Positions 47,301-50,300 of a stretch of 64,000 nt of DNA are shown piece by piece (within the stretch, counting starts at the first letter, position 1; each line of letters opens with the position of its first letter). This DNA is from Escherichia coli O157:H7 (GTDB lineage: Bacteria > Pseudomonadota > Gammaproteobacteria > Enterobacterales > Enterobacteriaceae), in assembly GCF_013167455.1 (NCBI RefSeq), contig NZ_CP038328.1; one strand, written 5' to 3'. Made by a program: the position numbers.

Positions 47301-50300
47301 ATGTTTATTGCGTGGGTTATAAGTATTGTTATTGCATACTTAAGGCCCTTTAGCTCAGTGGTTAGAGCAGGCGACTCATAATCGTCCGGTCGCTGGTTCA
47401 AGTCCAGCAAGGGCCACCAAATCATCATTCATGTATCAGGAAGAGTTAAGGGTACAAGGGTTACTCGATGGCGGTCTATATTTCACGATTAACGCCATTT
47501 CAAGGAAGAAGTGCGGTGGGTGGTTTCGAATGAGGGCTGGTGTTTTGGTACGTGGCACGCCACTGCAATGTATTTATCTATCAGTACTCATTCAAAAGTA
47601 TTTGGAAAAAATGCCTGCTATGCCAAGCGGGCAAATTGCTTACATGTGGAATTAAGTAATTAACGATAAAGCCAGCGTATTATCATTTATTATACCCATT
47701 CATTTAATCAGGTTAATTACTCAAATCACTGAACTATTCTCTGTTCGCTCACTGATGATAAGGGAGTACCACAACCAATGTATGTAGAACAATGCCGTAG
47801 AGTAAGGATGAAATGTCTCTGCCACGCCTTAAACATCTACTACTGACTAGAACACCCGCCGCAGGTAGATGAGTTTTGTGAGCGTTACAGGAGCGTGGCT
47901 ATGCTCATTAATCAACGCTATTTAGATATAAATTTCTAACACTCGAAAAACGATTTTCACTAATAAATTATAACGGGTGGTTTTTATCATACAGCGAAAT
48001 AACCTTTTGTTTATTAAATTTAACATTCCTGTGCTAATTTAATTAAAAGTTCCATGCGTAGCAAGTGAAGCAGTTAATGTCAGCAATTGTCTCAAATGAG
48101 CGATTTTTTATAGTGACAAACAATAATAACATTAAAAATAGCCATGTAGACATTAACTGAGGAATAGAAAATGTTAATTAATAAAAGCAACGGATTTAAC
48201 GCTAGCGCAGTTTGGGGTAGTGGAAGTTATAATGAAAATAAATCTTCTAAACACATGGAGCTACTAGCTCATAGTATTGTAAAATTAATTTGTAAGGAAG
48301 CTGCATCAGAGACGTATCGCGGTGCTCTTGAAATTTTACAAAAAATAATGTCTGAATGTATATATCAAGAAGGCAACGCCTTTGTCATTATGGGAGCTGG
48401 GGAACAATTAAAACGTATTAAATATGATGTTGATGAAAATAACTTAAAGGTATTCAACGTACACTTTGATAATAATGAAGTGTTAGTTACTGATGGTGAG
48501 CCTGACGTAGTATGTTTAAGCAAGCAGGTCTGGGAAAATCTTCTCATTAAATTAAAACCGGAGATCAAGGAAAATGTGGCTTCTGAAGTTCATAAATCAG
48601 CGAATAAAGGTGAGATTGAGCAATTAGTTGAATGGTCTAAAAGAAATGAACAAACCCTTTTCGATAATATAATAAAAAGTGATTTTCATGTTGGTTCACT
48701 TAAGCCAGGTAGTATGAATGGTGTTATTTTAGAAATGCCACCAAATGTCTGTATGGAACCACGTAATTCATATGAAAACAAAATAGATGAGGTTTCATCT
48801 TTGTCAGAGTCAGAGGAACACCCCATAGATATTCAAAAAATAACAGATGCGTTTGTGAAGGAGTTCAAGGGGATATTATTTGATAAAAATGGAAGATCTT
48901 CAGAGCTTCTGTTTAATTTTTATGAATGTTGCTATACGTTTTTACCAAGAGCGCAGCCTCAAGATAAAATCGATAGCTATAATTCAGCACTGCAAGCTTT
49001 TTCCATCTTTTGTTCATCTACGTTGACACATAATAATGTAGGCTTTGATTTCAAATTATTTCCAGAAGTCAAGCTGTCTGGAGAACATCTTGAAACGGTA
49101 TTCAAATACAAAAATGGCGATGATGTCCGGGAGATAGCCAAAATTAACATTACTCTCCAAAAAGAAGAGGGTGGCTTATATAATCTACGTGGATTGGATT
49201 TTAAGGGATGCTTCTTTTCTGGACAGAACTTCAGTAACTATGATATTCAATATGTGAACTGGGGAATGTCATTGTTTGATGTTGATACTCCGTGTATTTT
49301 TAATACGCCTGCTAACCATGAGAGTTATGAAAAATCATTAAAACCTGTAAGCGAAAACGGTTTAAATGGAGTCTTATCTGATCGTAATAAAAAAATAAAA
49401 ATGATCACGGGTGTGGCACCATTCGATGATATTTTATTTATGGATGATGACTTTGATGATAACTCCCCTGAGGATGCTCCCATTGAGAATAGTCCTGTTG
49501 TGAATAGTCCTCTTGTATAAAGTTCTAAAAGCAGTTTTCAATGATAAATAAATGGCAATTTTTATAAAGAGATAATAACGTAGATTGAAACAATATGTAT
49601 TATTGATTGAGTAAACGGGATTATTCTTCACACTACATCCATTTTAGTGTCACTACCAAAGAAAAAGGGGCTACGTTTTCATGTAACCCCTTGATTTATT
49701 TGGTGGGCTGGCAGTGACTGAATTGGTGCTGTAATTGGTTGAAATATTTCATCTATTGTCTGGTTCAACTTTCCTTAGCTGCCTGAAAGTTTTTTGATCT
49801 CACCCAGCAATAACAGCGTTACGGTGCACCACGCCTGACTGAAGAACTGCGTGCTCAGGGTTACCGCTTCAACGTAAAACCGTGGCAGGAGGTCCGGACT
49901 GAAAAAACTGCTCAGGACATCATCGGCAGGGAAAGCACTGCTAGTCTGTAAACTGAACCGACTGGGGCGCAGTATGTGGCATCTTGTCGTGCTGTTGGAG
50001 GAGCTGTGCGAACGTGGTATTAACTTTCGTGCTCTGGCCCAATCTATATTTGCCCAACAATGGGGGGACGAATGCTGTAAAAGTAAAACAATCTGCGATC
50101 TCAAAGTTATTGTGTGATTTTTATGTGAGCAGAAGATATTCATCAGAAACGATTATGTAAATCATTTTATTTTGCCAACGGCCTCATTGTCGAAAGAAAA
50201 GAATACGCCCGTATTTCCTGAATGGATTGACTTTTTTATCCAACCACACTTCAGCGCACTGCGTTTAAAAAATGCCTCATTCTTATGCGGAATATCATCA

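What the first reader, a model, noticed from the sequence alone, without database searches (positions are those of the whole stretch)
49900..50118. Pin/Hin-family DNA invertase reduced to a short fragment
Only the central conserved resolvase segment (LNRLGRSMWHLVVLLEELCERGINF) is recognisable. This is a relic of an invertible-segment or prophage system between the hypothetical ORF and the adhesin gene, matching the pinH position in the K-12 map as I recall it.
Basis: partly seen in the sequence, partly recalled or inferred. Interest (0 to 1): 0.3.

Follow-up and report, generated by a model that had tools for sequence, protein, structure and literature searches.

The report
Dead DNA-invertase gene fragment (pinH)
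This is a roughly 180-base dead remnant of a phage-type DNA-invertase gene, the already catalogued E. coli pseudogene pinH, lying among other mobile-element scars upstream of the ypjA adhesin gene; it is real but ordinary.

Summary
Window 49890-50039 encodes the middle of a Pin/Gin-type serine invertase (PinE residues 42-91; Pfam Resolvase E=9e-10; Gin structure E=5e-12; 83-86% nucleotide identity to intact pin genes). Weaker, frame-shifted homology continues to about 50069 after a 4-nt deletion.

The window is E. coli O157:H7. The fragment is the ortholog of the K-12 pseudogene pinH (b2648), in the same place between ypjCB and ypjA, and NCBI's PGAP annotation pipeline already annotates it as a partial recombinase.

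It cannot work. The N-terminal 41 residues with the catalytic serine are missing, as are the C-terminal DNA-binding domain, any gix/hix-like sites and any tail-fibre segment. Differences between E. coli alleles in its reading frame are almost all non-synonymous.

Three details are added here.
- The 5' break abuts an IS3 relic: 18 bp of the left inverted repeat fused to IS3 nt 543-618.
- The 3' break falls exactly where a ypjA-upstream module begins. That module is paralogous to ymgJ-ycgI, so the last 48 nt of the annotated pinH ORF are not invertase-derived.
- About 190 bp upstream lie a fossil Fels-2-type attP arm and a CP4-57-type attR. These mark a graveyard of elements that integrated at the tmRNA gene ssrA.

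About 55% of complete E. coli genomes carry the same scar. Already known; low interest.

The parts
49890..50039 (+). Pin-type invertase relic, in-frame part. It corresponds to PinE codons 42-91; residue D64 is changed to N, while R65 and R68 are retained.
   Evidence: Pfam PF00239 E=9e-10. Gin structures 4m6f/3uj3 E=5e-12. tblastn with e14 PinE gives 70% identity, E=2e-19. blastn gives 86% to the L003 pin gene, 83% to e14 pinE and 76% to the Fels-2 invertase.
50040..50069 (+). Probable continuation of the pin relic after a 4-nt deletion that shifts the frame. It corresponds to PinE codons ~93-102 and ends in CAATGGGG of the PMGR motif.
   Evidence: MAFFT alignments to pinE give about 59% identity over ~30 nt. 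This is weaker than the core and is an inference.
49878..50117 (+). Equivalent of the K-12 annotated pseudogene pinH (b2648). It is an 80-codon frame open from one stop codon to the next. The only ATG is at 49974, which gives a 47-aa ORF.
   Evidence: K-12 annotation and alignment. ORF list. PGAP calls 49881-50048 a partial 'recombinase family protein'.
49795..49812 (+). IS3 left terminal inverted repeat, first 18 bp (TGATCTCACCCAGCAATA).
   Evidence: blastn against an intact IS3 gives 17/18 matches at IS3 nt 1-18; the K-12 allele matches 18/18.
49812..49886 (+). Internal IS3 piece (IS3 nt 543-618, within orfB, encoding YGAPRLTEELRAQGYRFNVK). It is fused directly to the inverted repeat, so IS3 nt 19-542 are deleted.
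   Evidence: 92% identity to IS3 over 76 nt. Pfam HTH_21 E=7e-4 and NCBIfam transpos_IS3 positions 148-177.
49700..49780 (-). Fossil attR of a CP4-57-type ssrA-integrating element. It consists of an ssrA 3'-end-like core (reverse complement TTGGTGG-GCTGGC, lacking the base equivalent to T357) followed by the element's right-end arm.
   Evidence: About 80% identity to the K-12 CP4-57 right end/psaA and to a CP4-57-like element end next to cbtA in strain AF22. The T357 deletion at the CP4-57 attR is taken from PMC10107115.
49639..49699 (-). Fossil attP arm of a Fels-2-type (P2-like, ssrA-integrating) phage. It includes a rho-independent terminator hairpin at 49665-49692.
   Evidence: 89-91% identity over 75 nt to Fels-2 (annotated attP), RE2010, SopEPhi, SEN8, Cartapus and 500465-1, and to the prophage/ssrA junction in E. 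coli E1433. Terminator scan.
50071..50455 (+). ypjA upstream module, with its 39-aa ORF at 50272-50391. It is paralogous to the ymgJ-ycgI region near minE. Its left edge is the 3' break of the pin relic.
   Evidence: 87-89% identity to the ymgJ locus in most E. coli genomes.
48171..49520 (+). ypjCB, the upstream neighbour (DUF5507+DUF5508). It is a single 449-aa ORF here and is split into ypjC and ypjB in K-12.
   Evidence: Pfam and NCBIfam. Annotations.
50456..54292 (+). ypjA/ehaD adhesin-like autotransporter, the downstream neighbour. Only residues 1-1277 of the 1526-aa K-12 protein are present.
   Evidence: tblastn and megablast against K-12. Annotation.

Best explanation
This is a non-functional, neutrally decaying remnant of a phage-type Pin DNA-invertase gene, the ortholog of the K-12 pseudogene pinH.

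Shown:
- Only codons ~42-91 survive in frame, and possibly codons to ~102 out of frame.
- The 5' part is gone. That part would hold the catalytic serine and, in the characterised invertases (family knowledge, not tested here), the recombinational enhancer inside the gene and the crossover site just upstream.
- The break abuts an IS3 relic that is itself internally deleted.
- The 3' part, which would hold the rest of the catalytic domain, the E-helix and the helix-turn-helix domain, is gone.
- That break coincides with the left edge of a duplicated ypjA-upstream module.

Inferred:
- A Pin-bearing prophage once lay in the array of elements integrated at ssrA. Fossil Fels-2-type and CP4-57-type att scars lie about 190 bp away, and Fels-2-type phages both integrate at ssrA and carry this kind of invertase.
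- An IS3 inserted nearby, and illegitimate deletions then joined internal IS3 sequence to internal pin sequence.
- The scar was fixed before the E. coli lineages that carry it diverged.

It does nothing today beyond being spacer DNA upstream of ypjA.
For: - Homology and extent.
- Orthology with K-12 pinH and synteny.
- Missing parts: tblastn covers only PinE residues 38-94. There are no gix/hix-like sites; the half-site count of 5 compares with 6.7 expected by chance. There are no tail-fibre, Fels-2 or CP4-57 protein remnants elsewhere in the window.
- IS3 relic and junction.
- No protein-level constraint: non-synonymous to synonymous codon differences against four divergent alleles are 13:2, 7:1, 3:0 and 2:0. 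Divergence in the relic (12% against KE55) equals or exceeds that of the flanking non-coding DNA.
- All nine alleles compared share identical junctions. 3003-3008 of 5426 complete genomes carry the scar.
- No complete E. coli genome holds a more complete pin at this locus.
- Other strains have further IS1 or IS3 hits and deletions in the relic, as expected for dispensable DNA.
- Att fossils.
Against: - The source element is not identified. In Fels-2-type phages the invertase lies ~7 kb on the other side of the attP arm. Here the pin relic sits beyond the core, behind a CP4-57-type arm, so a single simple prophage cannot explain the order.
- The best nucleotide match (86%) is to an e14-type pin gene rather than the Fels-2 invertase (76%).
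- No expression data were available, so transcription of the 47-codon ORF, or a cis effect on ypjA, is not excluded.
Confidence: 0.92

Rival explanations
1. The fragment is the remnant of a Hin-like phase-variation switch that once inverted a promoter to turn the downstream adhesin gene ypjA/ehaD on and off.
For: The relic lies ~390 bp upstream of ypjA in the same orientation. From my own knowledge, this resembles the hin-fljB layout.
Against: - There are no hix/gix-like sites. The full 26-bp pattern gives 0 hits with up to 3 mismatches, and half-sites occur at the chance level.
- The pin/ypjA-module junction coincides exactly with the edge of a module that also exists, without any invertase, at ymgJ-ycgI. 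The juxtaposition is therefore secondary.
- The relic is closest to tail-fibre-associated phage Pin genes.
- No genome has a fuller invertase here.
Confidence: 0.03
2. The fragment has been exapted. Either the 47-aa ORF (49974-50117) or the RNA is a functional small product, or the relic supplies promoter or regulatory sequence for ypjA.
For: - The scar is retained in ~55% of E. coli genomes with identical junctions.
- The ORF has an ATG.
Against: - Codon differences between alleles are overwhelmingly non-synonymous.
- The relic is among the fastest-diverging pieces of the region.
- No +strand sigma-70-like promoter was found in 49450-50500.
- It is disrupted or deleted by IS1 or IS3 in some strains.
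- The strongly conserved stretch lies elsewhere, at 50265-50455.
Confidence: 0.04
3. The resemblance to invertases is a chance match in AT-rich intergenic DNA.
For: None beyond the shortness of the match.
Against: E-values run from 9e-10 to 3e-44 in four independent searches, with 83-86% nucleotide identity to intact pin genes.
Confidence: 0.001

Closest known systems
E. coli K-12 pseudogene pinH (b2648)
   Same: Same locus (ypjC/ypjB - pinH - ypjA, next to ileY). It is 98-99% identical across the whole intergenic region, with the same IS3 relic, the same 4-nt deletion and the same stop codon.
   Different: There are only two base differences inside the relic. The upstream neighbour is one fused ypjCB ORF here and two ORFs in K-12. 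ypjA is truncated here and full-length in K-12.
PinE of the cryptic prophage e14, and related Pin/Gin/Cin/Hin invertases of P2-, Mu- and P1-type phages
   Same: 70% amino-acid and 83-86% nucleotide identity over codons 42-91. The RLGRS...ERGINFR core is conserved.
   Different: Intact enzymes are ~184-193 aa with Ser9/10, an E-helix and a C-terminal HTH. From family knowledge, they also have an enhancer in the 5' coding region and flanking 26-bp crossover sites around a tail-fibre segment (searches show the tail-fibre context). None of these is present here.
'PinH' of O157:H7 prophage CP-933H (UniProt Q8X7L1)
   Same: Same gene name and same protein family.
   Different: That is an intact 22-kDa invertase in a prophage elsewhere in the O157 genome, reported in a proteome list (PMC3936929). 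It is a different gene from this relic, so the shared name is a trap.
Tandem island scars at the ssrA (tmRNA) integration hotspot: the Fels-2 attP arm and the CP4-57 attR (psaA)
   Same: Window 49639-49712 is 89-91% identical to the Fels-2-type attP arm. Window 49700-49780 is ~80% identical to the CP4-57 right end, and shares the missing T357-equivalent base.
   Different: Only 60-80 bp of each arm survive. No integrase or other element genes remain between them and ypjA.

Membership tests
Serine recombinase, Pin/Gin/Cin/Hin DNA-invertase subfamily | Sequence homology to the resolvase/invertase catalytic domain, closer to invertases than to resolvases | tested here: met
   PF00239 E=9e-10, covering 56 of 145 profile positions. 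Gin E=5e-12 against gamma-delta/Tn3 resolvase 5e-3 to 5e-2. PinE 70% identity.
Serine recombinase, Pin/Gin/Cin/Hin DNA-invertase subfamily | N-terminal catalytic serine (Ser9/10) and the first ~40 residues | tested here: not met
   Homology starts at PinE codon ~42. Upstream DNA is IS3-derived.
Serine recombinase, Pin/Gin/Cin/Hin DNA-invertase subfamily | E-helix and C-terminal helix-turn-helix DNA-binding domain | tested here: not met
   There is no match beyond residue ~94 (or ~102 out of frame). Downstream DNA is the ypjA-upstream module.
Serine recombinase, Pin/Gin/Cin/Hin DNA-invertase subfamily | Pair of inverted 26-bp crossover sites (gix/hix/pix/cix) | tested here: not met
   The consensus gives 0 matches with up to 3 mismatches in the 64-kb window. 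The half-site gives 5 matches against 6.7 expected, none near the relic.
Serine recombinase, Pin/Gin/Cin/Hin DNA-invertase subfamily | Adjacent invertible segment with alternative tail-fibre genes | tested here: not met
   tblastn with e14 StfP/TfaP/TfaE/StfE/YmfQ and with Fels-2 gpH, FI, FII, E, T, U, D, Ogr, CI and Int finds nothing in the window.
Serine recombinase, Pin/Gin/Cin/Hin DNA-invertase subfamily | Fis-dependent recombinational enhancer within the 5' coding region | not testable with these tools
   The 5' coding region where it lies in known systems is deleted, so it is presumably absent. No enhancer model was available to scan with.
Ortholog of K-12 pinH (b2648) | Same flanking genes and near-identical sequence, including the breakpoints | tested here: met
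   (98% mean column identity over 936 columns). The synteny ileY-ypjCB-pinH-ypjA is seen in many strains.
IS3 (IS3 family insertion sequence) | Terminal inverted repeats and an intact orfAB transposase | tested here: not met
   Only 18 bp of the left inverted repeat plus nt 543-618 remain. It is a relic, not an element.

The most novel reading that the evidence does not exclude
The most novel reading not excluded is that the invertase once formed a Hin-like invertible switch that phase-varied the ypjA/EhaD adhesin, with the present scar as its fossil. A milder version is that the relic still influences ypjA transcription in cis. Nothing found here supports either reading. There are no crossover sites, and the junction with the ypjA module looks secondary.
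Probability: 0.03. Interest if true: 0.45.

Novelty: already known. Interest (0 to 1): 0.1.

Why it matters
It matters little in itself. The fragment is a catalogued pseudogene with no plausible activity.

Its modest value is as a molecular fossil. Four element scars lie within about 430 bp (49639-50069): a Fels-2-type arm, a CP4-57-type attR, an IS3 relic and the pin relic. They record serial integration and decay at the ssrA hotspot next to the ypjA/EhaD adhesin gene.

There are also two annotation points. The K-12 pinH ORF is chimeric, because its last 48 nt are not invertase-derived. The name pinH denotes a different, intact gene in O157:H7 EDL933.

Tried and rejected
- **Crossover sites.** I searched for gix/hix-like sites, both the full 26-bp consensus and the half-site. 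There are none above chance. By eye, TTATCCAACCAC at ~50237 looked half-site-like, but it fails the formal scan.
- **Other prophage remnants.** tblastn with e14, Fels-2, CP4-57 and E1433 proteins found only the invertase hit.
- **A less decayed ancestor (pin).** A chimeric query of the pin 5' end plus the relic found no genome with a fuller pin gene.
- **A less decayed ancestor (IS3).** A chimeric query of the CP4-57 arm plus an intact IS3 left end found strain 20220828076. Alignment showed a secondary IS3 insertion at 49829/30 with loss of pin and ypjA, not an ancestral state.
- **Other species.** A genome-contig scan with an invariant 38-mer of the ypjA-upstream module gave one hit. It was an E. 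coli-like contig in a 'Clostridiales' MAG that corresponds to the ycgI paralog, and it was uninformative.
- **RNA families.** Rfam and ARAGORN found no partial tmRNA at 49700; the piece is too short.
- **Literature.** Searches for pinH and b2648 returned mostly noise. The paper 'Traffic at the tmRNA gene' is not held.
- **Single Fels-2-like prophage.** I considered that one such prophage explains both the att arm and the pin relic. I rejected this as stated because the gene order is wrong.

Full report
**Observation**

The reading frame around it (49878-50117) is open from a TAA stop codon to a TGA stop codon, and its only ATG is at 49974. Formal searches confirm homology.
- Pfam Resolvase PF00239: E=9.1e-10, 39 bits against a 23.3-bit cut-off, profile positions 48-103 of 145.
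- Gin invertase structures 4m6f/3uj3: residues 41-95, E=5e-12. Gamma-delta and Tn3 resolvases score only 5e-3 to 5e-2.
- e14 PinE: residues 38-94 at 70% identity, E=2e-19.
- DNA level: 86% identity over 141 nt to an intact prophage pin gene (L003), 83% to e14 pinE and 76% to the Fels-2 invertase.

**Identity**

The window is E. coli O157:H7, with 100% identity to many O157 chromosomes. NCBI's PGAP annotation pipeline labels window 49881-50048 a 'recombinase family protein', incomplete and missing both termini.

In K-12 MG1655 the gene order is ileY - ypjC - ypjB - pinH (b2648, pseudogene) - ypjA. The K-12 pinH coordinates map to window 49878-50117. The whole ypjCB-ypjA intergenic region is 98-99% identical between the two strains.

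One caution concerns the name. In O157:H7 EDL933, 'PinH' denotes an intact 22-kDa invertase of prophage CP-933H (Q8X7L1), listed in a proteome study (PMC3936929). That is a different gene.

**Anatomy of the relic**

The relic is bounded on both sides by unrelated sequence.
- **5' side.** IS3 homology (92% over 76 nt, IS3 nt 543-618, inside orfB) runs from 49812 to 49886. It is preceded directly by the first 18 bp of the IS3 left inverted repeat at 49795-49812. The IS3 is thus itself a relic lacking nt 19-542 and everything after nt 618. Pin homology starts at about 49890, which is PinE codon 42. An internal IS3 sequence is therefore joined to an internal pin sequence. This is the signature of illegitimate deletion, not of a transposition end.
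- **3' side.** In-frame homology runs to 50039. A 4-nt deletion relative to pin follows. Weaker similarity (~59% over ~30 nt, ending in CAATGGGG of the PMGR motif) continues to about 50069 in another frame.
- **Beyond the 3' break.** From 50071 onward the sequence is 87-89% identical to the ymgI/ymgJ-ycgI region near minE, present in most E. coli genomes. It is a duplicated 'autotransporter upstream module'. The last 48 nt of the ORF annotated as pinH in K-12 are therefore not invertase-derived.

**What is missing**

The following parts of a working invertase system are absent.
- The first ~41 residues with the catalytic serine.
- The 5' coding region, which holds the recombinational enhancer in known invertases (family knowledge, not tested here).
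- The E-helix and the helix-turn-helix domain.
- Any crossover sites. The gix/hix consensus gives 0 hits with up to 3 mismatches. Half-sites give 5 hits against 6.7 expected, none nearby.
- Any tail-fibre genes, and any other e14, Fels-2 or CP4-57 protein remnant in the window.

Asp64 of the conserved DRLGRS motif is changed to Asn.

**Population view**

The scar is present in 3003-3008 of 5426 complete E. coli genomes. I compared nine alleles that differ by up to 12-16% locally. All share exactly the same junctions, so the scar predates their divergence.

In the pin reading frame, non-synonymous to synonymous codon differences against the window are as follows.

| Allele | Non-synonymous : synonymous |
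|---|---|
| KE55 | 13:2 |
| 13TMH22 | 7:1 |
| MEW | 3:0 |
| K-12 | 2:0 |

The relic diverges as fast as, or faster than, neighbouring non-coding DNA. This indicates no protein-level constraint.

The KE55-type allele is closer to intact pin at several codons, for example GDT against GKA. This is as expected for independent decay.

Other strains carry further damage.
- AR_0061 has an IS1 insertion with deletion of 49556-49945.
- Strain 20220828076 has a fresh IS3 inserted at 49829/30, with loss of the pin relic and ypjA.
- Strain A28 has an IS3 between the relic and ypjA.

No complete genome holds a more complete pin at this locus.

**Context: a graveyard at the ssrA hotspot**

In strain KE55 the order is ileY - ypjCB - pinH - ypjA - ssrA - smpB. 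ypjA therefore abuts the 3' end of the tmRNA gene ssrA. Two att fossils lie just upstream of the IS3 relic.
- **Fels-2-type attP arm (49639-49712).** This stretch includes a minus-strand terminator hairpin at 49665-49692. It is 89-91% identical to the attP arm of Fels-2, RE2010, SopEPhi, SEN8, Cartapus and 500465-1, all P2-like phages that integrate at ssrA. It is equally similar to the prophage/ssrA junction of E. coli E1433.
- **CP4-57-type attR (49700-49780).** This stretch begins with an ssrA-3'-end-like core, TTGGTGG-GCTGGC. It is ~80% identical to the right end of CP4-57 in K-12 and to a CP4-57-like element end beside cbtA in strain AF22. The core lacks the base equivalent to ssrA T357. 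The same base is lost at the CP4-57 attR and on CP4-57 excision (PMC10107115).

Reading left to right, the locus is:
1. Fels-2-type arm
2. ssrA-like core
3. CP4-57-type arm
4. IS3 inverted repeat plus internal IS3 piece
5. internal pin piece
6. ypjA module

The Fels-2-type phages that supply the arm also carry Pin/Hin-type invertases, and these hit the relic. A P2/Fels-2-like prophage once resident at ssrA is therefore an economical source for the pin fragment.

The order does not fit one simple prophage, however. In Fels-2 the invertase lies ~7 kb on the other side of the arm. The best nucleotide match is also to an e14-type pin gene. The source element therefore remains unresolved. I put about 0.4 on a Fels-2/P2-like prophage in the ssrA array.

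**Mechanism**

There is none today. The fragment is inert spacer DNA.

The following are shown:
- homology and its extent
- both breakpoints
- the absence of every functional part that could be tested
- lack of protein-level constraint
- orthology with K-12 pinH

The following are inferred:
- the order of events: prophage acquisition, IS3 insertion, internal-to-internal deletions, then juxtaposition with the ypjA module
- the source element

**Rivals**
- **A fossil Hin-like phase switch for ypjA.** This is not excluded but is unsupported. There are no crossover sites, and the junction coincides with the edge of a module that also exists without any invertase at ymgJ-ycgI. I give it about 0.03.
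- **Exaptation as a micro-ORF or promoter.** The substitution pattern argues against this. So do the absence of a +strand promoter-like site and the IS-mediated losses in other strains. I give it about 0.04.
- **Chance similarity.** This is refuted.

**Novelty and verdict**

This is already known. The relic is annotated in K-12 (b2648) and by PGAP. The added detail is descriptive: the chimeric ORF, the structure of the IS3 relic, the neighbouring att fossils and the population data. Interest is 0.1.

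Noticed in passing
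window 50265-50455: The stretch just upstream of the ypjA start, including the 39-aa ORF 50272-50391 (WP_001120794.1), is virtually invariant. There are zero differences at 50299-50398 among nine alleles that differ by 5-16% on either side. It is ~89% identical to the paralogous ymgJ-ycgI region. It looks like a constrained leader or regulatory element of this autotransporter family.
   Followed up: partly
window 50456-54397: The O157:H7 ypjA/ehaD matches K-12 YpjA only for residues 1-1277 of 1526. Homology stops at 54292 and the ORF ends at 54397 in unrelated sequence. The C-terminal ~249 aa, which by my reading is the beta-barrel translocator, is missing from the window. PGAP labels the gene merely 'frameshifted'.
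   Followed up: partly
window 49639-49780: Two fossil attachment-site arms lie back to back: a Fels-2-type attP arm with its terminator hairpin, and a CP4-57-type attR with the T357-equivalent deletion. They imply that ssrA once lay here and that elements stacked up between it and ypjCB.
   Followed up: yes
window 48171-49520: ypjCB is one intact 449-aa ORF here (DUF5507+DUF5508) but is split into ypjC and ypjB in K-12 and is a pseudogene in several strains. Its 3' end differs by 8-16% between E. coli alleles, far above typical core-genome divergence.
   Followed up: no
window 47344-47419: ARAGORN calls this tRNA 'Met (CAT)'. The RefSeq and K-12 annotations call it tRNA-Ile (ileY, CAU anticodon). 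This appears to be the usual miscall of the Ile(CAU) tRNA.
   Followed up: no
L021 ~7100-7130; L007 4249-5001; L022 3649-4811: The relic region attracts further IS insertions in other strains. A fresh IS3 lies inside the IS3 relic in strain 20220828076, with loss of pinH and ypjA. IS1 with a deletion lies in AR_0061. An IS3 lies between pinH and ypjA in A28.
   Followed up: partly
L020 (URTG01000020.1): A contig assigned to an 'uncultured Clostridiales' MAG is 99.8% identical to the E. coli ymgJ-ycgI-minE region. This is probably E. coli contamination of that bin.
   Followed up: no
window 56168-57381 (from L001 14569-15782): An apparently intact IS3-family element with a programmed frameshift interrupts a DUF6387 gene in the island downstream of ypjA. 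It shows no DNA similarity to the IS3 relic beside pinH, so it is a different family member.
   Followed up: no
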